The notes beneath the pieces were generated by a model. It did not search any database. It was given only the letters and a program-made list of their open reading frames with translations, and had not been told where the DNA came from. Position numbers and translations under genes: made by a program. Shown one piece after another: positions 3 to 13,008 of a stretch of 64,000 nucleotides of DNA. Position 1 is the first letter of the stretch. Each line of letters starts with the position of its first letter. Origin of the DNA: a virus (taxonomy: Duplodnaviria; Caudoviricetes); the IMG/VR virus record IMGVR_UViG_3300044655_001017; one strand, 5' to 3'.

Positions 3-467
3 GAAGTTGCACAGAACATTCTTGCTGATCTTACTATTGCAGTAGAACAAGAATGTCCAATTGCTAAACAACTTGGTGCAGAAGGGGTCGGCGAGGGAAT
101 TGTTTGGCAATGTGTTACTCCTGGTTACGAACAATCACGCTTTATGTTTAAAGTTAAAGGTGAAAAACACAGTTCATCTAAAGTTAAAACACTAGCAAGT
201 GTTGATATTGAAAAGGTTAATTCTATTAATGAGTTTGCTGATACAGTAGTTACTGAATCTAGACTTACTCAAGGTTTAGAATACTTAAAAGTACACAACA
301 TTAGTATTGAACCTAAAAGCACTCCTGTATTCTTAAAATGGATTGCAGATGATGTTGTTAAAGAAGAAACTGATACGCTAGTTGCAAGTGAACTAGAAAT
401 CAAAGATGTAATAACAAGAGTTAAATATGTTGCACGTACATGGTTTTTAGCCCAAGAGGAAATGTAA
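3..467 (+). CDS. RNA ligase (Rnl2-like nucleotidyltransferase), 5'-truncated by window edge
   Basis: Frame is open from base 3; translation contains ligase motifs IV and V (GEGIVW ... FMFKVKGEKH). Confidence 0.7.
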   Translation, partial: EVAQNILADLTIAVEQECPIAKQLGAEGVGEGIVWQCVTPGYEQSRFMFKVKGEKHSSSKVKTLASVDIEKVNSINEFADTVVTESRLTQGLEYLKVHNISIEPKSTPVFLKWIADDVVKEETDTLVASELEIKDVITRVKYVARTWFLAQEEM

Positions 468-1119: not shown

Positions 1120-1147
1120 TTGACAAACAATTTTATTAGTGTATAAT
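1120..1147 (+). promoter_or_regulatory. sigma70-like early promoter
   Basis: TTGACA-16 nt-TATAAT upstream of groES; near-identical copy at 7134-7161. Confidence 0.75.
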
Positions 1148-1496: not shown

Positions 1497-1615
1497 AGGT
1501 TTCCTACAGCAACAATTTAATATCTCAGTGTGTCGCAGGTTCAAATCCTGCACTGCTCGCAAGAGCGGTTAGCTCAGTTGGTAGAGTAATTGATCAAAAT
1601 TGTGAAACCTGTTAA
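1497..1615 (+). ncRNA. Y-RNA-like scaffold copy A with circularly permuted tRNA module
   Basis: AGGTTTC/GAAACCT stem, CTACAGCAA bulge; inside: T arm GCAGG-TTCAAAT-CCTGC, acceptor ACTGCTC-GCAA-GAGCGGT, D arm TAGCTCAGTTGGTAGAGTA. Confidence 0.75.
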
Positions 1616-1641
1616 AACTCCTTAAAAAATTAAAAAAAGTG

Positions 1642-1670
1642 TTGACACAGCAGTAACAATGTAGTACAAT
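1642..1670 (+). promoter_or_regulatory. sigma70-like promoter driving small-RNA cluster
   Basis: TTGACA-17 nt-TACAAT immediately 5' of scaffold copy B. Confidence 0.7.
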
Positions 1671-1676
1671 AGTTTT

Positions 1677-1734
1677 AGAATGTTAACAGCAACTTAAAAT
1701 CATTTTTGAATATGACTAAAATACATTCTGTTAA
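1677..1734 (+). ncRNA. Y-RNA-like scaffold copy B
   Basis: AGAATGT/ACATTCT stem, TAACAGCAA bulge, GTTAAA tail. Confidence 0.65.
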
Positions 1735-1744
1735 ATAGTTTTTT

Positions 1745-1823
1745 AGGTTTCCTACAGCAATACTTTGCAGAAGTGCGGAAAAGATGTTCCGTACATATTT
1801 GTAACACTATGTGGAACCTGTTA
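1745..1823 (+). ncRNA. Y-RNA-like scaffold copy C (three inner hairpins)
   Basis: AGGTTTC/GGAACCT stem, CTACAGCAA bulge, GTTAAA tail. Confidence 0.65.
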
Positions 1824-1829
1824 AAAAGT

Positions 1830-2072
1830 TTATTAAAAAGAACCCAACTATTGAAAAAACTTTTGCGCAAGCAAGCACAATGTGTTCTCCGGAAGGGGCA
1901 CAGTGGGTAGTTATAGACTGCGAGTTGTAATGAGTGAGAGTTTCAGGCAATTACAGTGCTTTGATTCTAGTTACTATGGTAGTCATGTTGGCGGAACTAG
2001 TAAAGGGCGTCTGTAAAACGTTGACCGCATCAGCTCGATGAAACCAAAACTTTACGGGGTTCTTTTTAATAA
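1830..2072 (+). ncRNA. unclassified structured RNA (~245 nt)
   Basis: Perfect 16-bp closing stem TTATTAAAAAGAACCC/GGGTTCTTTTTAATAA, several internal hairpins, no long ORF. Confidence 0.5.
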
Positions 2073-2077
2073 GTTTT

Positions 2078-2205
2078 AGAATGTTAACCGCATCATAATT
2101 TAATGGAAACTGGTGTCCTTAGGACGTGTAGGTGCAAGTCCTACAATGCAATATTGCATTTGGCGAAAGAGTAGACGCACTGGTAAATAAAATGCATTCT
2201 GATAA
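2078..2205 (+). ncRNA. Y-RNA-like scaffold copy D with permuted class-II (Leu-like) tRNA module
   Basis: AGAATGT/GCATTCT stem, TAACCGCAT bulge; variable-arm hairpin, T arm GTAGG-TGCAAGT-CCTAC, closed acceptor AATGCAA/TTGCATT, D arm TGGCGAAAGAGTAGACGC. Confidence 0.7.
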
Positions 2206-2220
2206 ACACATGAGGTAACT

Positions 2221-2433
2221 ATGAATACAGATTACGCACATGCAGAAGGATTTGCTACATTTACAGGGGATGTAAAAAGAGCATATGAAATATCAAGTTG
2301 GTGCAAGGATCGCAAATTAGTACACGAAGTTGATTATAAATATCATTGTCAACGAAGAGAAAATACTAACACGATAATATTTCAATTTAAAGATCCAAAG
2401 CAAGCTACATTAGCAAGATTGGTTTGGATTTAA
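2221..2433 (+). CDS. hypothetical protein
   Basis: ORF track; GAGG RBS. Confidence 0.6.
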   Translation: MNTDYAHAEGFATFTGDVKRAYEISSWCKDRKLVHEVDYKYHCQRRENTNTIIFQFKDPKQATLARLVWI

Positions 2434-2440
2434 CAGTTTT

Positions 2441-2504
2441 AGGATAGTAACAGCAACAATTTACATCGGACTCTTAATCTGGCAAGTAAATTCTATCCTG
2501 TTTA
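2441..2504 (+). ncRNA. Y-RNA-like scaffold copy E with Lys(CUU)-like anticodon hairpin
   Basis: AGGATAG/CTATCCT stem, TAACAGCAA bulge, inner CGGA-CTCTTAA-TCTG. Confidence 0.65.
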
Positions 2505-2519
2505 ACAACAAATAAACAT

Positions 2520-2810
2520 ATGACCAAATTATCTAAATTAACTAAAAGAAAATCAGATATTAGTTTTATTGATCCAACTACTATGGAAGTTAGATGCACA
2601 TTTAATCAGTGTGTTGATAAGTTTACAATTGGTGAATATGAAACTATACCAAAAGCTAACGGAAACGAGTATACTGTTTTTTATCATAAGTGCGCAGAAT
2701 GCGGTCAACGTGTTAAAGGACGTGGTGATAGTACAAAGGGTTGGTTTAAACATATAGACCGAGTAGTTGACGGCAGCAACAAGTTTTATTCTTCAAATAA
2801 AGAAGAATAA
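2520..2810 (+). CDS. hypothetical protein (Cys motifs, possible Zn-binding)
   Basis: ORF track; CAEC motif. Confidence 0.6.
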   Translation: MTKLSKLTKRKSDISFIDPTTMEVRCTFNQCVDKFTIGEYETIPKANGNEYTVFYHKCAECGQRVKGRGDSTKGWFKHIDRVVDGSNKFYSSNKEE

Positions 2811-2816
2811 GATTTT

Positions 2817-2905
2817 AGAATAGTAACAGCAAATTATTTAATGGTTCGATTCCATTATTGCTATCTTAGCGATAATGCTCAATGGTGAGCAAGCTATTCT
2901 GTTAA
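2817..2905 (+). ncRNA. Y-RNA-like scaffold copy F with minimal permuted tRNA module
   Basis: AGAATAG/CTATTCT stem, TAACAGCAA bulge; T arm AATGG-TTCGATT-CCATT, acceptor ATTGCTA/TAGCGAT closed by TCT, D arm GCTCAATGGTGAGC. Confidence 0.7.
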
Positions 2906-2907
2906 AG

Positions 2908-3022
2908 TTGTTATATTAAAATGTACTACAGCGTCTGATATCAACGTAAGTGTGGAGCACTGCTAGAGTCGCCCTTTAGTATACGGTTCGATTCCGTGAT
3001 GTAGTACATTTTAATATAACAA
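2908..3022 (+). ncRNA. tRNA-like RNA without canonical anticodon loop, in a 23-bp stem
   Basis: Perfect 23-bp inverted repeat (2908-2930/3000-3022) enclosing four hairpins including T arm ACGG-TTCGATT-CCGT. Confidence 0.5.
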
Positions 3023-3034
3023 AAGGAGATTAAT

Positions 3035-3217
3035 ATGGCCGGTAAAGGTAGTAGAGCAAGACCATTAAGCGTTAGCAAATCTCAGTTTGATGATAACTGG
3101 GATAAGATTTTTGGTAAGAAAGAAGAACCCAAAACAGAAATCATTTCAAACTCACACGGCAGTCATGCTAATAACGAAAATTTAGATAAAGGAACACAAG
3201 ATGGCGAACATCAGTAA
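3035..3217 (+). CDS. small hypothetical protein
   Basis: AAGGAG RBS; MAGKGSRARP...FDDNWDKIFGKK. Confidence 0.65.
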   Translation: MAGKGSRARPLSVSKSQFDDNWDKIFGKKEEPKTEIISNSHGSHANNENLDKGTQDGEHQ

Positions 3218-3434
3218 AGCAAATAGAACTGCAGATCCAAAAGTAACACGTAATGGCAGACCTAGACTTAAATTGCTAAACTTAGCTCAAGCTAAGACAG
3301 CACTTGAAAAAGCAGGTCGTGGACGTGATAAAAATAAAATTCGTAACAGAATTGTACTTTTAGAAAATCGTGCTAAAAAATTAGGTGTGTTAGATTTAGT
3401 CACAACTACAACTAATCATGCAGAACTTGTATAA
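3201..3434 (+). CDS. small basic hypothetical protein
   Basis: ORF track; overlaps the previous gene. Confidence 0.6.
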   Translation: MANISKANRTADPKVTRNGRPRLKLLNLAQAKTALEKAGRGRDKNKIRNRIVLLENRAKKLGVLDLVTTTTNHAELV

Positions 3435-3445
3435 ATAAAAAATAT

Positions 3446-3531
3446 GGGCAAGCGTCGCAGTAGGAGAGGCGAGATGGACTGTAAATTCATTACCACGTGT
3501 TGAGTAGATTCGATTTCTACCTTGCCCACCA
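3446..3531 (+). tRNA. tRNA-Tyr(GUA), long variable arm, atypical D arm
   Basis: GGGCAAG/CTTGCCC acceptor, loop CTGTAAA, TTCGA T loop, encoded CCA; TATAAATA late promoter at 3430-3437. Confidence 0.8.
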
Positions 3532-3546
3532 AATAACTAATATAAC

Positions 3547-4161
3547 ATGAACGTATGTAAACACTGCCAACAACCTGCACTTTATCCTCCAAAAACAAAA
3601 TGGGGAGGTTGGTGTTGTGTTGAAAGATTTTATGATTGTACTGGATTTAAGTTAAAACAAAAACTTGGAAAAGAACAATCATCTAAAATTACCGGATTTA
3701 TGCCTAACAATGTTCCTTGGAATAAAGGTAATATAGGTAATGGAACATTTAATGGAAAAACACATACTGAAGTAACTAAAATTTCTATTTCAAATTCAAT
3801 GAAAGGTAATCGAAATGCAAATCATCGAGGTGATCGGCAAAGTTATTACAATAACATTAGAATGGATTCAAAATGGGAAGTCGGTGTAGCTAAGTATTTT
3901 GACAACAATAAAGTTGAATGGAAATATAATGTACAAGGGTATCAATTATCTAATGGCAACTATTATTACCCAGACTTTTTTATATATGAAAATGGAAATT
4001 TTGTAAAATTAGTCGAAGTTAAAGGTTATTTTAGAGAATCAAACAAGGCTAAATTTGAAATGTTCCTTAATGAATATTCACATATTCAAATAGAGCTTTG
4101 GCAAAGAACAATGCTCTATGATTTAGGAATAATAAATAAATCAGGTTATGTTATTGAATAA
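3547..4161 (+). CDS. free-standing endonuclease, PD-(D/E)XK-like with NUMOD-type linker
   Basis: N-terminal Cys cluster, PWNKG motif, YYPDFFI...LVEVKGY catalytic pattern. Confidence 0.65.
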   Translation: MNVCKHCQQPALYPPKTKWGGWCCVERFYDCTGFKLKQKLGKEQSSKITGFMPNNVPWNKGNIGNGTFNGKTHTEVTKISISNSMKGNRNANHRGDRQSYYNNIRMDSKWEVGVAKYFDNNKVEWKYNVQGYQLSNGNYYYPDFFIYENGNFVKLVEVKGYFRESNKAKFEMFLNEYSHIQIELWQRTMLYDLGIINKSGYVIE

Positions 4162-4181
4162 CAGAAACCACCAATTATAAG

Positions 4182-4255
4182 TGTCCTTTAGTGTAATGGT
4201 AGCACAGCAGATTTTGATTCTGCTAGTATAGGTTCGAGCCCTGTAGGGACTGCCA
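4182..4255 (+). tRNA. tRNA-Gln(UUG)
   Basis: Cloverleaf, GCAGA-TTTTGAT-TCTGC anticodon arm, GGTTCGAG, CCA. Confidence 0.9.
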
Positions 4256-4263
4256 AATATTAT

Positions 4264-4338
4264 TCCCTAATAGCTCAGTGGTAGAGCAGGCGACTGTTAA
4301 TTGCCCGGTCGGTGGTTCGAGCCCATCTTAGGGAGCCA
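4264..4338 (+). tRNA. tRNA-Asn(GUU)
   Basis: TCCCTAA/TTAGGGA, loop CTGTTAA, CCA. Confidence 0.92.
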
Positions 4339-4343
4339 AACAA

Positions 4344-4647
4344 GTTTATTGGGATGTAGGCTTAAAAGCAGCCATCATTTAAAGAGTGACCCGCAAACTT
4401 TGCTAAAGTGATACTTAAACTTACGGCAGTGCGAAAGCAACCTGTGAGCGTATGTAACTGCGTTAATATAGAGTCCGGCAATATGCCTTAATGGCTGTTA
4501 CGAGTCTAAAGTGATTGCTATATTAAACGGATGAGGGAGGTACACCCTAATGTTAAGGATGTTTTTCCTAATAGTTAAACTTAACATGTCCGAGAGTTAA
4601 TTAGGATGTCGCAGACAGGTCTTTGGCGTAACAGCACACCACTAAAC
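4344..4647 (+). ncRNA. 23S rRNA L11-binding domain (H43-H44) mimic with ~240-nt insertion
   Basis: GGGATGTAGGCTTAAAAGCAGCCATCATTTAAAGAG (4351-4386) and GCGTAACAGCACAC (4626-4639) match the two halves of 23S nt ~1055-1105. Confidence 0.7.
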
Positions 4648-4748
4648 AACAGAAAACTTTCTCCATCAACGAAAGTGTAGTAGTTGTCATTTTTAAATGA
4701 TAGCTATTACTAAAGCACTAAATATCAAGTGTTTTAGTAATAGTTATT

Positions 4749-4824
4749 GCCAAAGTAGCTCAATAGGTAGAGCACTTCACTTGTAATGAAGATGTTGCGG
4801 GTTCAATTCCTGTCTTTGGCTCCA
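4749..4824 (+). tRNA. tRNA-Thr(UGU)
   Basis: GCCAAAG/CTTTGGC, loop CTTGTAA, CCA. Confidence 0.92.
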
Positions 4825-4832
4825 TATATTTA

Positions 4833-4920
4833 GGAAGGTTGCCAGAATGGTTAATGGAGCAGTTTGCTAAACTGTCGACCTGAAAAGGTCGTATAGGTTC
4901 GAGTCCTATACTTTCCGCCA
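4833..4920 (+). tRNA. tRNA-Ser(GCU)
   Basis: GGAAGGT/ACTTTCC, loop TTGCTAA, long variable arm, CCA. Confidence 0.92.
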
Positions 4921-5006
4921 TACAATAAATGATTTAATTAGTACTTGACTTATACAAAATTTAATGTATAATACACGCATTAGTTAAACAAATTACAGAT
5001 CATGTT

Positions 5007-5585
5007 ATGGAACAATACAAAAATAGTAACGGAACATATACTAGTCCAAAAAATAACAGGACTTATAAAAGTTTAAAAGCATTTACTGCCCACTGGCATT
5101 ATGCACACACAACAAATCCTAATGCATTTGCTGAACGATTATATAATGTAGCATGTCAGTATTGCAATAAAGAATATATGATTAGTAATCATAAACGACA
5201 TGAAGTTGCATGTTATTTAAATCCAATTAATATAAAAAAGTGCTGTGTTTGTGATAAACCAATTAAGAATTACAAGTACAGTAAAGGTACATGTTCTCAT
5301 AGTTGTTCTAATACACATTTTAAAGAGTTAAGAAATAAACCAGAAAAATATACGCAATATGCAACAATTTGTTGGTACTATCATGTTAAAGAATGCATAG
5401 TATGTAAAGAATCAAATATTGTAGCAGTACATCATTATAATGAAAATCATAATGATAATACACTATCAAATTTAGTTCCATTATGTCCTACTCATCACCA
5501 ATACATGCATAGTAGATTTAAAATCCAAATTCAACACATTGTTGATGAGTATGTATTAAATATGAAAATAAAATTTAGAGAATAG
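5007..5585 (+). CDS. HNH endonuclease with Zn-binding N-terminal region
   Basis: CIVC...VHHYNENH...NLVPLCPTHH HNH signature. Confidence 0.8.
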   Translation: MEQYKNSNGTYTSPKNNRTYKSLKAFTAHWHYAHTTNPNAFAERLYNVACQYCNKEYMISNHKRHEVACYLNPINIKKCCVCDKPIKNYKYSKGTCSHSCSNTHFKELRNKPEKYTQYATICWYYHVKECIVCKESNIVAVHHYNENHNDNTLSNLVPLCPTHHQYMHSRFKIQIQHIVDEYVLNMKIKFRE

Positions 5586-5595
5586 TGTGTTGTGT

Positions 5596-5668
5596 CAGGG
5601 TATAGCTGAGGTTGGTTTAGCACCGCGTTTGGGGCGCGGAGACGGGAGTTCGAATCTCTCTATCCTGA
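5596..5668 (+). tRNA. tRNA-Pro(UGG), no encoded CCA
   Basis: CAGGGTA/TATCCTG, loop TTTGGGG, GTTCGAA; followed by ACACAA rather than CCA. Confidence 0.85.
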
Positions 5669-5720
5669 CACAATACATTACTAAATGTAACCCAACATAG
5701 TACGCGAATACTATAGTTTT

Positions 5721-5773
5721 TGAATGCTAACAGCAATTATTACTTTCAATGGTGAATTTAATGCATTCAGTTA
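5721..5773 (+). ncRNA. Y-RNA-like scaffold copy G with Glu(UUC)-like anticodon hairpin
   Basis: TGAATGC/GCATTCA stem, TAACAGCAA bulge, inner loop CTTTCAA. Confidence 0.65.
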
Positions 5774-5795
5774 TAGTATTTGCATACAACAGTTT

Positions 5796-5853
5796 TGGAT
5801 GCTAACTGCAACTTTAAACTTTCTTTTTATGAAACTTAAAATGCATCCAGTTA
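5796..5853 (+). ncRNA. Y-RNA-like scaffold copy H
   Basis: TGGATGC/GCATCCA stem, TAACTGCAA bulge, inner TTTC-TTTTTAT-GAAA hairpin. Confidence 0.65.
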
Positions 5854-5864
5854 TTTAATCATAT

Positions 5865-6640: not shown

Positions 6641-6741
6641 GGTATAGATACTGCAACACAACTATAGCTGGTCTGTGGTTTCACAGATAATCCTAGGACT
6701 CTTTACCTAGTATAAAAAAAGTAAGAACTACTATACCGTTA
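6641..6741 (+). ncRNA. Y-RNA-like scaffold copy I
   Basis: GGTATAG/CTATACC stem, ATACTGCAA bulge, two inner hairpins, GTTA tail. Confidence 0.6.
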
Positions 6742-6746
6742 AAAAT

Positions 6747-6886
6747 AGGATAGGTTCAGCAAACAGAATTTGTTAGTTTAATAACTAGCTTTCTGATTAG
6801 CTTGCACTAGAGGTCATTGTGCAAGCAGCAGTCGAGGGGCAATGCTCGACTGTAAAATAAACAACTAAACGCCCAAACTATCCTGC
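6747..6886 (+). ncRNA. Y-RNA-like scaffold copy J
   Basis: AGGATAG/CTATCCT stem, GTTCAGCAA bulge, inner hairpins GCTTGCAC/GTGCAAGC and CAGTCGAG/CTCGACTG. Confidence 0.6.
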
Positions 6887-6918
6887 ATTCTTCCACTAAC
6901 AACTTATAGAGGTATATT

Positions 6919-7133: not shown

Positions 7134-7161
7134 TTGACAAACAATTTTAATAGTGTATAAT
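7134..7161 (+). promoter_or_regulatory. sigma70-like promoter of the TROVE-like gene
   Basis: TTGACA-16 nt-TATAAT. Confidence 0.75.
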
Positions 7162-7178
7162 ACACAACATAAACAATA

Positions 7179-7217
7179 AGTTTATTAACAGCACATAATT
7201 TAATATAAACTGAGGAG
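7179..7217 (+). promoter_or_regulatory. scaffold copy K in the 5' UTR abutting the RBS (putative autoregulatory operator)
   Basis: AGTTTAT/ATAAACT stem, TAACAGCAC bulge, 3' G is the first base of GAGGAG. Confidence 0.6.
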
Positions 7218-7224
7218 AACACAC

Positions 7225-8637
7225 ATGAGTACATTTATCGAAGCAATTGCAAATCAAGAAGATCGTACCACTAACGGTATGAAAGCACGTAAATCAACCT
7301 CAAGTGCATTAGTCGATCTCTTCTTTAAGGCAGGTGCCTCGAGAGGTAAAAACATCACACCTGAGTTTGTTGCCGCCTATGTAGAAGATAAAGATCTTGC
7401 ATTACGTATTGCAGCTTGGGTACGCGATGTACGTGGTGGTGCAGGCGAACGCCAGTTGTTTAGAGATATTTTATTGTATCTTGAAAACTCAGATCCAGAT
7501 GCTGCTAAGAAACTTGCAGCTAAAGTTCCTGAACTTGGACGCTACGATGACTTACTTGTGTTCAAAACACAAAACTTAAAGGACTATGCATTTGCGTTAA
7601 TTAAAGATGCATTAGAAGCGCAAAATGGACTTGCTGCTAAATGGATTCCACGTAAAGGAGATACTGCGGTACAGTTACGCAATTACTTAGGGTGGTCTCC
7701 TAAACGTTATCGCAAAACACTTGTTTCACTTACTAAAGTAGTTGAAACACAAATGTGTGCTAACCAATGGGACACTATTAACTTTAGTCATGTTCCATCT
7801 GTAGCATCTTCACGCTACAAAAAAGCATTTGCTCGTCACACTGACAAGTATGCTGAATACATTGCTAAATTAGTTAAAGGTGATGATCCAACTGTTAAAG
7901 TTAACGCAGGTGCGATCTATCCATATGAAATCGTTAAGGGTTTAAGTGGTTGGTCTCAACCATCACTACTTGAAAAACAACACATTATTGCACAATGGGA
8001 CGCGTTACCTAACTATGTTGGTGATGCAAGCATTTTACCATTAGTTGATGTATCAGGATCCATGGGTTGTTCTGCAGGTAAAAGCAAAACTGTTACTTGT
8101 ATGGATGTTGCATTATCTTTAGGAATATACTTAGCAGATAAAAATGCTGGTAAGTTTAAAGATACATTCTTAACATTTAGCTCTAAACCAGAGTTAGTTA
8201 CACTAAACGGTAATGTAGTTGAGAAGTATGCGCAGATGTCAAAAAGTGATTGGCAAATGGGCACTAACTTACATGCAGCTTTTTCTAAGATTTTAGAAGT
8301 TGCAGTTAATGGTAATGTACCTGTTGAAGAAATGCCAAAGATACTTTTAATATTATCTGACATGCAATTTGATGCTTGTGTAACACATGATGATTCTGCA
8401 ATAAAAATGATTTGTCGTAAGTATGAAGATGCAGGATATACAGTACCACAAGTTGTGTTTTGGAACTTAAACTCACATGACAATGTGCCAGTTAAGTACA
8501 ATGCAAAAGGTGCAGCATTAGTAAGTGGATTTAGTCCAAGTATTATGACAAGTGTACTTGCAGCTGATATGGATGACTTTACTCCACAAGCAATTATGTT
8601 ACAAACAATTATGAATCCTAGATATGATATAGGATAA
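7225..8637 (+). CDS. DUF2828-family protein (TROVE/Ro60-like helical domain plus vWA MIDAS domain)
   Basis: RDVRGGAGERQLFR, LAAKWIPRKG, DVSGSM MIDAS, ILSDMQFD, VFWNL, VSGFSPS motifs. Confidence 0.8.
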   Translation: MSTFIEAIANQEDRTTNGMKARKSTSSALVDLFFKAGASRGKNITPEFVAAYVEDKDLALRIAAWVRDVRGGAGERQLFRDILLYLENSDPDAAKKLAAKVPELGRYDDLLVFKTQNLKDYAFALIKDALEAQNGLAAKWIPRKGDTAVQLRNYLGWSPKRYRKTLVSLTKVVETQMCANQWDTINFSHVPSVASSRYKKAFARHTDKYAEYIAKLVKGDDPTVKVNAGAIYPYEIVKGLSGWSQPSLLEKQHIIAQWDALPNYVGDASILPLVDVSGSMGCSAGKSKTVTCMDVALSLGIYLADKNAGKFKDTFLTFSSKPELVTLNGNVVEKYAQMSKSDWQMGTNLHAAFSKILEVAVNGNVPVEEMPKILLILSDMQFDACVTHDDSAIKMICRKYEDAGYTVPQVVFWNLNSHDNVPVKYNAKGAALVSGFSPSIMTSVLAADMDDFTPQAIMLQTIMNPRYDIG

Positions 8638-11075: not shown

Positions 11076-11606
11076 ATGGCAGATGTGTATGTGATTTCAG
11101 ATCCGCATTTTGGACATGTAGGTATTTGTAATTTTTTAAGACCAGACGGTACTAAAGTGCGTCCATGGGATACTTACGAGGAAATGGATGAAGAACTCGT
11201 TAAAAGGTTTAACGAAACTGTAAAACCTAATGACAAATTGTATATCCTAGGTGATGTTGCAATCAATCGTAGAGCATTACCTACACTAGCAAGATTACAC
11301 TGTAAAGATATGGTACTTATTAAAGGTAACCATGATATCTTTAGACTTAATGAGTATACTCCATATTTTAGAGACATTAGAGCATATCATGTTCAACAAA
11401 ATGTATTGTTAAGTCATATTCCAATTCACCCGTGTGAAATGAGTAGATGGCGTGGTCAGTTACACGGGCACTTGCATAGTAATGTTGTAATGAATGGAGA
11501 TGTACCTGATACTAGGTATGTAAATGTATGTGTTGAACACCATGACTTTAGACCAGTATTACTAAATGATATGATTGCACTAGTTAAAGAGCTAAATAAT
11601 AGTTGA
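11076..11606 (+). CDS. calcineurin-like metallophosphoesterase
   Basis: SDPHFGH, LGDV, GNHD, LSHIP, HGHLH motifs. Confidence 0.9.
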   Translation: MADVYVISDPHFGHVGICNFLRPDGTKVRPWDTYEEMDEELVKRFNETVKPNDKLYILGDVAINRRALPTLARLHCKDMVLIKGNHDIFRLNEYTPYFRDIRAYHVQQNVLLSHIPIHPCEMSRWRGQLHGHLHSNVVMNGDVPDTRYVNVCVEHHDFRPVLLNDMIALVKELNNS

Positions 11607-12223: not shown

Positions 12224-12231
12224 GAGGATTG

Positions 12232-13008
12232 ATGAAAATCGCGTATGCATCAGATTTGCATTTTGAATTTAGAGATTTGCATTTAGAAAACATCAAACCT
12301 GCTGATGTTTTAATCCTTGCAGGAGATATATTAAATGTTAGTAAACTTAAACGTCAGGCAGCAAATCATAAACGTGATAGCATTGATACTATCAATTTTT
12401 TCAATAACGTTACTGCTGCTTTTAAGCATGTTATTATGGTTATGGGAAATCACGAATATTATTCTTCAGATCTCACCACGGCGGTAGATGATCTAAAAGA
12501 GTTATTACCCTATCCTAACTTACACATCTTAGACGGTGAGTATTTAGAAATAGATAACAATTTGTTTATTTGTGGCACATTGTGGACTGACTTTAACAAT
12601 GAAGATCCATACACCGTAATAGGTGCCCCTAGGATGATAAATGATTTTAGAGTTATTCTTAATAATGGAAAAAAGTTATTTCCTGATGAGATCTTAGCAA
12701 GACACAAACACTTTGTTAAATGGGTTACTCAAGTTGACAAAATAGGGTACGAAAATGTTATACTTGTTACTCATCATTCACCTTCATATCAAACAATTGC
12801 AGATCACTATAAACATGATTATGCAATGAATGGACTGTTTGGATCTAATTTAGATCATTTGTTAACAATGTTTGACTATGCATTTTTTGGACATCAGCAT
12901 GATCCTAAAACTCCAGTTATACATGATTGTGTACTGCTTAATAATGCAAGGGGATATCCACACGAATCTTCCTTTACTGATTTCAAATTAAAATATATTA
13001 CTATATGA
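12232..13008 (+). CDS. calcineurin-like metallophosphoesterase
   Basis: SDLHFE, AGDI, GNHEYY, THHSP, FGHQH motifs. Confidence 0.9.
   Translation: MKIAYASDLHFEFRDLHLENIKPADVLILAGDILNVSKLKRQAANHKRDSIDTINFFNNVTAAFKHVIMVMGNHEYYSSDLTTAVDDLKELLPYPNLHILDGEYLEIDNNLFICGTLWTDFNNEDPYTVIGAPRMINDFRVILNNGKKLFPDEILARHKHFVKWVTQVDKIGYENVILVTHHSPSYQTIADHYKHDYAMNGLFGSNLDHLLTMFDYAFFGHQHDPKTPVIHDCVLLNNARGYPHESSFTDFKLKYITI

What the first reader, a model, noticed from the sequence alone, without database searches (positions are those of the whole stretch)
1497..2905. Three scaffold copies carry circularly permuted tRNAs opened at the anticodon loop
Seen: in copies A (1497), D (2078) and F (2817) the order is T arm, acceptor helix closed by a short loop (GCAA in A), then D arm, i.e. 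3' half before 5' half. In A the anticodon stem (ATTGA/TCAGT) is intact and leads into the scaffold; D has a Leu-like long variable arm and a GGCGAAAGAGTAGACGC D arm. They have no CCA end and cannot be aminoacylated as they stand. Known: this is the YrlA-type tRNA-mimic topology. Inference: independent captures of different tRNAs into one scaffold, acting as elbow mimics or decoys for tRNA-binding enzymes.
Basis: partly seen in the sequence, partly recalled or inferred. Interest (0 to 1): 0.75.

Follow-up and report, generated by a model that had tools for sequence, protein, structure and literature searches.

The report
Rearranged tRNA mimics on phage Y-like RNAs
Three small RNA genes of a large freshwater phage carry tRNA bodies with the two halves in swapped order and a sealed acceptor end, mounted on a shared "handle" that travels with a Ro60-like ring protein; they look like a new variant of bacterial tRNA-mimicking Y RNAs, not like working tRNAs.

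Summary
Copies A (1497-1616), D (2078-2206) and F (2817-2906) each run T arm, acceptor helix closed by a 3-4 nt loop, then D arm. They keep tRNA connector lengths (0, 2 and 1 nt) and have no CCA.

- A is a complete class I body.
- D is a class II (Leu-like) body with five compensatory pairs across three phage variants.
- F is a top half with no anticodon stem, so "opened at the anticodon loop" fits A and D only.

All three sit in a common handle: a 7-bp covarying stem, a YWACAGCAA bulge and a G(U)U tail. The window holds 10 such units, plus one in the 5' UTR of gene 7225-8637. That gene (DUF2828/DUF7788) folds like Ro60.

Handle units accompany the gene in 75 of 80 viral loci fetched by the protein alone. 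They are still beside homologues of only 38-48% identity. An RNA ligase gene lies just upstream.

Best reading: these are Y-RNA-like partner RNAs of a divergent Ro60, with YrlA-type tRNA-mimic cargo. They fail YrlA membership (35.8 bits against a cut-off of 69; no GNCGAA motif). Maturation into real tRNAs is unlikely.

This scan has already noted the same protein-RNA system, and its likeness to Dictyostelium Class I RNAs, on other genomes. I found no published description. Function is inferred, not shown.

The parts
1497..1616 (+). Handle unit A. P1 1497-1503 pairs with 1604-1610; bulge CUACAGCAA 1504-1512; P2 1512-1518 pairs with 1597-1603; permuted class I tRNA-like core 1525-1593 with the acceptor closed by GCAA; tail GUUAAA.
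   Evidence: MFE equals the permuted cloverleaf, z -2.77; YrlA 35.8 bits; ARAGORN after un-permuting; acceptor stem replaced but still paired in L118
2078..2206 (+). Handle unit D. P1 2078-2084 pairs with 2194-2200; bulge UAACCGCAU; permuted class II (Leu-like) tRNA-like core 2109-2184 with the acceptor closed by AUAU; tail GAUAAA.
   Evidence: covariation on window/L120/L121: 28 pairs, 100% paired, 5 compensatory; fold z only -0.41
2817..2906 (+). Handle unit F. P1 2817-2823 pairs with 2894-2900; bulge UAACAGCAA 2824-2832; tRNA top-half mimic 2840-2890 (T arm, 7-bp acceptor-like helix closed by UCU, D-like arm); no anticodon stem.
   Evidence: z -3.13; nearly invariant in L118, L120 and L121
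1677..1735 (+). Handle unit B, short hairpin cargo.
   Evidence: skipped in some RNA-library contigs (1673->1739)
1745..1825 (+). Handle unit C, GC-rich hairpin cargo.
2441..2505 (+). Handle unit E. Cargo is P2 plus a 5-bp stem with the 7-nt anticodon-like loop CUCUUAA.
   Evidence: z -2.42; the same cargo type is common in other loci
5721..5775 (+). Handle unit G, short cargo.
5796..5855 (+). Handle unit H. Cargo hairpin with 7-nt loop UUUUUAU (UUUCCAU in L108).
6641..6744 (+). Handle unit I (GGUAUAG / AUACUGCAA ... CUAUACC / GUUAAAA).
6747..6887 (+). Handle unit J (AGGAUAG / GUUCAGCAA ... CUAUCCU / GCA), 115-nt structured cargo.
7179..7217 (+). Minimal handle in the 5' UTR of the Ro60-like gene. 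Its 3' strand runs into the GAGGAG ribosome-binding site. Candidate autoregulatory operator.
   Evidence: the same arrangement with a covarying P1 in about all of 76 related loci; 12/12 promoter at 7134-7161
7225..8637 (+). Ro60-like protein (Pfam DUF2828 + DUF7788, vWA with DxSxS; phrog_850 'RNA-binding protein').
   Evidence: AF2 model pLDDT 77; the Foldseek top 12 PDB hits are all Ro60/TROVE, including Thermus phage phiLo Ro60, E 6e-8 to 2e-4, full length
3..467 (+). C-terminal 154 aa of an RNA ligase. The full 366-aa gene is seen in the near-identical locus L118.
   Evidence: PF09414, E 3.6e-9; phrog_548 RNA ligase, E 5e-52
1120..1147 (+). Consensus sigma-70-type promoter (12/12) ahead of cpn10 (1179-1484). 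Unit A follows the cpn10 stop by 12 nt. A second promoter (11/12) at 1642-1670 precedes unit B.

Best explanation
A, D and F are stable non-coding RNAs, not tRNA genes. Each has two modules.

Module 1 is a handle shared by at least 10 RNAs of this phage: a terminal 7-bp stem, the single-stranded motif YWACAGCAA on the 5' side, and a G(U)U 3' tail. Inferred: the handle is the binding site of the phage's Ro60-like ring protein (7225-8637), as the terminal stem and 5'-strand motif of Y RNAs bind Ro60.

Module 2 is a cargo. Here it is a circularly permuted tRNA body (T arm, sealed acceptor helix, D arm; plus an anticodon stem in A and D).

Inferred: the cargo presents the tRNA elbow and acceptor/T minihelix to proteins that recognise tRNA shape. 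It either brings them to the Ro60-like particle or keeps them off real tRNAs. It cannot itself be charged or decoded. The neighbouring RNA ligase gene and tRNA cluster suggest a role in tRNA damage surveillance or repair, or in countering host tRNA-cutting defences during infection.

Shown: the structures, their conservation, and the gene-RNA association. Inferred: protein binding and the biological role.
For: Structure:
- MFE folds, connector lengths 0/2/1 nt and the invariant tRNA residues of A are read.
- ARAGORN accepts un-permuted A and D, and 0 of 1000 shuffles.
- D has 5 compensatory pairs in four helices. A has a wholesale acceptor-stem replacement that keeps pairing and a stable tetraloop.
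- YrlA model hits fall below threshold on A (35.8 bits) and on cargos in five other loci (26-36 bits).

Handle:
- 150 of 213 motif sites have the adjacent 7-mer perfectly paired downstream, against 9-51 at shifted registers. Four P1 positions show several Watson-Crick pair types.

Link to the protein:
- The model folds like Ro60.
- 75 of 80 viral loci fetched by the protein alone carry units on the gene strand, 324 against 85 on the other strand.
- A handle abuts the ribosome-binding site of the gene in about all of 76 loci.
- Units still flank homologues of 38-48% identity in MAG contigs and in L202.

Context and expression:
- RNA ligase upstream.
- Contigs from freshwater metatranscriptome libraries of three studies cover A, C, D, E and F.

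Precedent:
- YrlA and phage Ro60-Yrl particles (PMC4201824; PMC12135203).
Against: - No binding data of any kind.
- The handle lacks the GNCGAA/CGAA motif of known Ro60 partners, and Pfam does not call the protein TROVE.
- The Ro60 likeness rests on a medium-confidence model (pLDDT 77, TM 0.5-0.6).
- D folds no better than shuffles (z -0.41), and its T and D loops lack the U55 and G18 needed for a canonical elbow.
- Most of the 80 co-occurrence loci belong to one phage clade (66-99% identity), so part of the association may be shared descent.
- RNA-library contigs cannot show transcript ends and may include DNA.
- Which tRNA-binding protein is engaged is unknown.
Confidence: 0.6

Rival explanations
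1. Free decoys. The tRNA-like RNAs act on their own as sponges or competitive inhibitors for host tRNA-targeting defence nucleases or other tRNA-binding enzymes. The handle would only stabilise or process them, and the Ro60-like protein would play no part.
For: The same array and related phages display anticodon-like 7-nt loops (E, H; many CU-NNN-AA loops). Phages are known to counter anticodon nucleases with tRNAs and RNA repair (PMC7824862). An RNA ligase lies next door.
Against: A, D and F lack the anticodon loop that such nucleases cut. The handle follows the Ro60-like gene down to 38% identity and sits on its ribosome-binding site, which a mere stabiliser would not explain.
Confidence: 0.18
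2. RNase P substrates. Like M. smegmatis YrlA, units with a 7-bp acceptor helix (A, F) are cut in the closing loop and receive CCA. This gives a two-piece, possibly chargeable tRNA-like RNA held together by the handle.
For: Chen et al. [quoted passage not shown] A and F have a 7-bp acceptor stacked on a 5-bp T stem with no spacer.
Against: Acceptor length is not conserved: 6 bp in the L118 form of A, and 6 versus 8 bp in D variants. The closing loops are stable tetraloops (GCAA, CUUG). There is no conserved discriminator or trailer.
Confidence: 0.1
3. Processing punctuation plus decayed tRNA genes. The handles are cleavage or stability signals of the polycistronic tRNA-region transcripts, and the tRNA-like pieces are remnants of rearranged tRNA genes without a function.
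For: The units lie among tRNA genes and are co-transcribed with mRNAs (promoters). Small ORFs and unit B come and go between strains.
Against: Compensatory changes keep every helix of D and the acceptor of A paired. The T / closed acceptor / D order recurs with unrelated sequences in many phages. Sealed tetraloop acceptors are not what decay produces.
Confidence: 0.07
4. True permuted tRNA genes. The transcript is cut at the handle, circularised or rejoined by the phage RNA ligase, and opened at the acceptor loop to give functional tRNAs, as in the red alga Cyanidioschyzon merolae (from my own knowledge).
For: 3' half precedes 5' half. A ligase gene is adjacent. No tRNA-Lys or tRNA-Leu gene lies in the window's cluster.
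Against: No residues that could form a 7-nt anticodon loop: in A the flanks pair as P2. F has no anticodon stem. D has G55 and no G18G19. Acceptor helices of 6-8 bp are closed by 3-4 nt. Many family members carry only an anticodon-like hairpin or non-tRNA cargo. No back-joined forms appeared in the RNA contigs, which is weak evidence.
Confidence: 0.04

Closest known systems
Bacterial and phage YrlA-type Y RNAs with Ro60/Rsr (Chen et al. 2014, PMC4201824; Rfam RF02553)
   Same: The 5' and 3' ends form a stem, followed by a conserved single-stranded motif on the 5' strand. The distal module is a tRNA mimic in the order T arm, acceptor-like stem-loop, D arm. Encoded near a Ro60-type ring protein and, as in Salmonella rsr-yrlBA-rtcBA, near an RNA ligase.
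   Different: The motif is YWACAGCAA, not GNCGAA(N)G. The protein is DUF2828/DUF7788, similar to Ro60 only by fold. The best Rfam score is 35.8 against a cut-off of 69. There are ten or more units per phage with interchangeable cargos, including class II bodies, a top half only, and bare anticodon-like hairpins.
Thermus phage phiLo Ro60 with Yrl1/Yrl2 (PMC12135203; PDB 9KOP, 9L5Y)
   Same: A phage-encoded Ro60 ring with small RNAs encoded just upstream. It is the best structural match of the window's protein. It is proposed to engage host RNA enzymes (PNPase).
   Different: The phiLo RNAs carry CGAA in a bulge and no tRNA-like domain is reported. Sequence identity to the window's protein is about 15%.
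Dictyostelid Class I RNAs (Kjellin et al. 2021, PMC7919456; Rfam RF01414)
   Same: Start (A)AG; a 6-7 bp terminal stem conserved in pairing but not in sequence; the motif CCUUACAGCAA directly after the 5' strand; a variable remainder; end CUGU; about 60 nt. The phage handle has the same order and nearly the same motif. RF01414 gives weak hits on A, B and C (17-18 bits) and 27 bits in L185.
   Different: Eukaryotic, reported as unique to Dictyostelia. Known to bind an RRM protein, and no tRNA-like cargo is described. Scores are below the 41.5-bit cut-off. I did not test whether dictyostelids encode a DUF2828 protein.
Permuted tRNA genes of Cyanidioschyzon merolae and two-piece tmRNA genes (from my own knowledge)
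   Same: The 3' half of a tRNA-type fold is encoded upstream of the 5' half.
   Different: Those are matured into functional, CCA-ended molecules. Here the acceptor end is sealed, no anticodon loop can form, and ARAGORN finds no tmRNA.

Membership tests
YrlA (Rfam RF02553) | Score at or above the curated gathering cut-off (69 bits) | tested here: not met
   A scores 35.8 bits, E about 1e-5. D and F give no hit at E <= 10.
YrlA (Rfam RF02553) | tRNA-like domain in the order T arm, acceptor-like stem-loop, D arm | tested here: met
   A, D and F. The aligned model positions for A cover all three arms.
YrlA (Rfam RF02553) | Ro60-binding module with GNCGAAN0-1G on the 5' strand of the terminal stem (PMC4201824) | tested here: not met
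   The 5'-strand motif is CUACAGCAA (A), UAACCGCAU (D) and UAACAGCAA (F).
YrlA (Rfam RF02553) | Encoded next to a TROVE/Ro60 orthologue | tested here: inconclusive
   A Ro60-like fold lies 4.3-5.7 kb downstream, but Pfam calls it DUF2828/DUF7788, not TROVE.
YrlA (Rfam RF02553) | tRNA-type modifications (pseudouridine 55, D) and binding by Ro60 in vivo | not testable with these tools
   Needs RNA from infected cells.
tRNA (RF00005 / ARAGORN) | Cloverleaf in 5'-to-3' order with a free acceptor end and a 7-nt anticodon loop | tested here: not met
   Neither tool calls them in native order. The acceptor is sealed by 3-4 nt and there is no anticodon loop.
Permuted tRNA genes (C. merolae type) | The termini can be joined to restore an anticodon loop or another tRNA segment, and the acceptor-side spacer is removable to give a CCA end | tested here: not met
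   The flanks of the anticodon stem pair as P2 (A) or are AU-rich linkers (D). F has no anticodon stem. Acceptor length varies from 6 to 8 bp.
Dictyostelium Class I RNA (RF01414) | Gathering score of 41.5 bits; terminal stem plus 11-nt motif plus CUGU end | tested here: inconclusive
   The architecture and motif core match. Scores are 17-27 bits.
Ro60/TROVE protein (for gene 7225-8637) | HEAT-repeat ring plus a C-terminal vWA domain with a MIDAS site | tested here: met
   The Foldseek top 12 hits are all Ro60, full length, TM 0.35-0.60. DVSGSMG motif. PDB sequence search gave no hit, so this is a fold-level match only.

The most novel reading that the evidence does not exclude
The handle RNAs are a modular display library. 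The phage's Ro60-like particle presents separate pieces of tRNAs: whole bodies without an anticodon loop (A, D), a top half (F) and bare anticodon-like loops (E, G, H). These would act as baits that capture or misdirect host tRNA-cutting defence nucleases, or recruit the phage RNA ligase to damaged tRNAs. That would be an RNA-based counter-defence of a kind not described. The same handle in Dictyostelium Class I RNAs would then point to an unrecognised Ro60-like RNP in eukaryotes.
Probability: 0.22. Interest if true: 0.85.

Novelty: new variant of a known kind. Interest (0 to 1): 0.62.

Why it matters
Y RNAs with tRNA-like domains are known, but what the tRNA mimic is for remains unsolved. This phage family offers a natural experiment. 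One conserved handle carries many interchangeable cargos: full permuted tRNA bodies of both classes, top halves and anticodon-like loops. It sits next to a highly conserved Ro60-like gene and an RNA ligase, in very many environmental phage genomes; the protein family has more than 7,000 clusters at 50% identity.

If the handle does bind the DUF2828 protein, three things follow:
- A large 'domain of unknown function' family, also present in plants and fungi, gets an RNA partner and a testable function.
- A new class of Y-like RNAs is defined.
- The unexplained Class I RNAs of social amoebae gain a concrete hypothesis.

For annotation, these elements explain many unannotated gaps inside phage tRNA arrays.

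Tried and rejected
- Whole genome: none is held for this window. The nearest record, G002, is a 20%-complete fragment carrying only the same tRNA cluster. I could not ask whether the phage has its own tRNA-Lys or tRNA-Leu.
- Isoacceptor assignment: BLAST of A against E. coli genomes gives only weak tRNA-Lys matches (E 0.5) and a tRNA-Lys|tRNA-Gly junction hit. D gives none. Comparison with 391 and then 947 ARAGORN tRNAs from the fetched loci matches only the generic D and T arms, with no consistent amino-acid type. So calling A Lys-like is not established. D is class II and Leu-like by its D arm only.
- PDB sequence search with the protein: no hit. Pfam on the truncated ligase ORF: no hit, resolved with the full gene from L118.
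- Literature: 'DUF2828' gives 5 unrelated papers. 'ACAGCAA' with Ro60 gives nothing relevant. tRNA-like/decoy/anticodon nuclease searches found no description of such RNAs.
- Exhaustive profile search: its top 150 are all close phage-type proteins, so it did not show whether Dictyostelium has the family. The search among longer proteins found plant, fungal and algal members but no dictyostelid, which is not evidence of absence.
- RNA-library contigs: there is no cover over 2238-2429 and 2558-2811. The three joints (1673->1739, 2208->2435, 2502->2812) remove unit B and the two small ORFs. L108 and L120 DNA lack ORF 2520-2810, so I read the joints as strain differences, not splicing. Contigs cannot give RNA ends, strand or level.
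- P0274 (2H phosphoesterase fused to DUF2828) lies on a eukaryote-like contig with no handle units nearby.
- PHROG and Pfam scans of larger window ORFs found no CCA-adding enzyme, RtcB or polynucleotide kinase, only two phosphoesterases of unclear role.
Full report
**What is there**

The window is a 35% G+C phage segment. It carries cpn10, a tRNA cluster, HNH-type nucleases, a parvulin and tail-fibre genes.

By eye, and then by regex, the region 1497-5855 holds eight units of one design, all on the + strand. Each has a 7-nt segment, then YWAC-N-GCA(A), a variable insert, the exact complement of the first 7-mer, and then G(U)U. Two more units with slightly different motif letters lie at 6641-6744 and 6747-6887. 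A minimal one lies at 7179-7217.

**The three cargos**

Copy A reads, after the handle and a second 7-bp helix: UCAGU, GUGUC, a T arm (GCAGG-UUCAAAU-CCUGC), ACUGCUC, GCAA, GAGCGGU, UA, a D arm (GCUC-AGUUGGUA-GAGU), A, AUUGA.
- This is a class I tRNA read from position 39 to 72 and then from 1 to 31.
- U8, A14, G15/C48, G18G19, G53-C61 and the U54-U55-C56-R57-A58 loop are all present.
- The connectors have tRNA length: 0 nt from T stem to acceptor, 2 nt from acceptor to D stem, 1 nt from D stem to anticodon stem.
- The minimum-free-energy fold of the whole unit is exactly this structure (z = -2.77).
- Rfam's YrlA model aligns to 1512-1606 end to end at 35.8 bits, E about 1e-5.

Copy D has the same order with a 4-bp variable arm, a 3-bp D stem and the loop AAAGAGUAGA, which makes it a class II, Leu-like body.
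- Its T loop is UGCAAGU and its D loop has no GG. Positions 55 and 18, which pair in tRNA, have both changed.
- Its energy is not better than shuffles (z = -0.41), so its case rests on comparison.
- In the three variants available (window, L120, L121) all 28 proposed pairs are standard pairs in all sequences.
- Five pairs changed on both sides, in the anticodon stem, variable arm, T stem and acceptor stem. Sliding the partners by 1-3 columns gives 29-42% pairing and at most one such pair.

Copy F is a 5-bp T arm with loop UUCGAUU, directly followed by a 7-bp helix closed by UCU, then AA, and a 4-bp arm with loop AAUGGU (z = -3.13). It has no anticodon stem and no variable region. It is a top-half mimic rather than a tRNA opened at the anticodon loop.

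Putting the halves of A and D back in tRNA order with a placeholder loop makes ARAGORN call both as tRNAs. None of 500 shuffles of each is called, nor is the native order.

In the close relative L118, the acceptor helix of A is replaced by an unrelated 6-bp helix with a CUUG loop, while everything around it is unchanged.

None of the three has CCA. I could not assign isoacceptor identities with confidence.

**The handle is real and widespread**

A pattern scan of viral contigs, followed by a fetch of 80 loci using only the protein of gene 7225-8637, gave 199 distinct good units.
- Anchoring on the motif alone, 150 of 213 sites have the adjacent 7-mer perfectly paired to a downstream 7-mer followed by G. 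At shifted registers the count is 9-51.
- Pairs 3, 4, 6 and 7 of the stem occur as several Watson-Crick types.
- Cargos fall into classes: 55-68 nt units with a 5-bp stem and a 7-nt CU-NNN-AA-like loop; 105-136 nt units with tRNA-like bodies; and 230-250 nt structured inserts.
- 36 of the 199 carry a T-loop consensus. Wherever a full set of arms is present the order is T, closed acceptor, D.
- Some cargos keep an intact anticodon arm and are broken instead between the D arm and the anticodon stem (for example L103:2041-2158 and L136:1641-1757). Sequences differ widely between phages. This supports repeated acquisition of tRNA bodies rather than one ancestral event.
- Five such cargos in other loci also give YrlA hits below threshold, at 26-36 bits.

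**Link to a Ro60-like protein**

Gene 7225-8637 is DUF2828 plus DUF7788, with a DxSxS vWA motif. PHROGs calls it an RNA-binding protein.
- An AlphaFold model built from 32 homologues has pLDDT 77 and pTM 0.76. Its twelve best PDB matches are all Ro60/TROVE, over the full length. They are led by the Ro60 of Thermus phage phiLo, with E from 6e-8 to 2e-4.
- Of the 80 loci fetched by the protein, 75 have units on the gene's strand: 324 against 85 on the other strand under a relaxed pattern.
- In about all of 76 loci, a unit lies directly before the start codon with its 3' strand touching the Shine-Dalgarno sequence, and its stem covaries. This is the arrangement expected for a protein that binds its own leader.
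- Homologues of only 38-48% identity, in contigs binned with diverse bacteria, still have typical units next to the gene (L202).
- The gene ending at 467 is an RNA ligase. This recalls the rsr-yrlBA-rtcBA operon.
- Near-consensus promoters stand before cpn10 plus A, before B, and before the Ro60-like gene.
- Contigs from RNA libraries of three freshwater studies cover A, C, D, E and F. That is consistent with transcription, but contigs cannot prove it or show ends.

**Interpretation**

The simplest account is that these are Y-RNA-like partners of a divergent Ro60, and that A, D and F carry YrlA-type tRNA mimics.

They do not qualify as YrlA. They score below the cut-off, they lack the GNCGAA motif, and the protein is not recognised as TROVE by sequence.

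Maturation into working tRNAs is unlikely, for four reasons:
- No anticodon loop can be formed.
- F lacks the anticodon stem.
- D lacks U55 and G18G19.
- Acceptor helices vary from 6 to 8 bp and are sealed by stable short loops.

RNase P cleavage in the loop, as shown for M. smegmatis YrlA, remains possible for A and F. What the mimic recruits or blocks is unknown.

Three things suggest a role in tRNA damage control or counter-defence, but this is inference: the presence in the same array of anticodon-like loops, the ligase, and the known use of tRNA cleavage by host defences.

**Relation to what is known, and to this scan**

I found no paper describing this handle or linking DUF2828 to Ro60 or to small RNAs.

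The handle matches the published description of dictyostelid Class I RNAs point for point: start AG, a covarying terminal stem, the motif ..UACAGCAA, a variable rest, the end CUGU, and about 60 nt.

After I had reached these readings, a look-up showed that earlier reports of this scan describe the same protein-RNA pairing and the Class I likeness on other genomes, and that first-stage notes on this window list the ten copies and the leader copy. My tests agree with them.

This finding adds three things: a detailed anatomy and the comparative support for the three permuted tRNA bodies, the evidence that one of them (D) has an altered elbow, and the point that F is only a top half.

Noticed in passing
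window 2921-3012: A 92-nt element closed by a 10-bp stem, with three internal hairpins. The last is a canonical T arm (ACGG-UUCGAUU-CCGU). It is a native-order tRNA-like fold that ARAGORN and Rfam do not call; MFE -27.8 kcal/mol.
   Followed up: partly
window 1830-2072: A 243-nt G+C-richer structured RNA closed by a stem of about 15 bp (MFE -67.8 kcal/mol), lying between units C and D with no handle motif. RNA-library contigs cover it, with the highest contig depth in run X17.
   Followed up: partly
window 2221-2433 and 2520-2810: Two small ORFs (70 and 96 aa, no family) lie between RNA units and are skipped exactly in RNA-library contigs. ORF 2520-2810 is also missing from L108 and L120 DNA. 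Unit B (1677-1735) is skipped in two runs. The RNA units are the stable part of this region and the ORFs are variable.
   Followed up: partly
window 5796-5855 versus L108:4587-4646: The 7-nt cargo loop of unit H differs at just the two middle positions between close phages (UUUUUAU versus UUUCCAU), while stem and handle are kept.
   Followed up: no
L153:2790-2922, L155:7878-8008, L159:9326-9456, L186:1508-1637: In several tRNA-like cargos the acceptor helix is closed not by a tetraloop but by a conserved 15-17 nt loop, CAAGCCUAAA(A/C)AGCAG. This loop contains a second copy of the AACAGCA-type motif.
   Followed up: no
all handle units, e.g. window 1684-1689 with 1728-1733: The bulge segment AACAG is complementary to CUGUU (the end of the 3' stem strand plus the tail). 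This alternative helix excludes P1 and is conserved across the family. It could be a switch or could have no meaning.
   Followed up: no
window 4340-4745: About 400 nt without an ORF or an Rfam match lie between tRNA-Asn and tRNA-Thr. A first-stage note reads it as a mimic of the 23S rRNA L11-binding region; I did not examine it.
   Followed up: no
P0274 / L201:345-3062: A 905-aa protein on a eukaryote-like contig fuses a 2H phosphoesterase (PF13563, '2'-5' RNA ligase') to DUF2828/DUF7788. This is a domain link between the family and RNA-end chemistry. Plants, fungi and algae also hold long DUF2828 proteins.
   Followed up: partly
window 11076-11606 and 12229-13008: Two phosphoesterase genes (phrog_547; calcineurin-like PF00149) lie a few kb downstream of the Ro60-like gene. 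They could be RNA end-healing enzymes, but this is untested.
   Followed up: no
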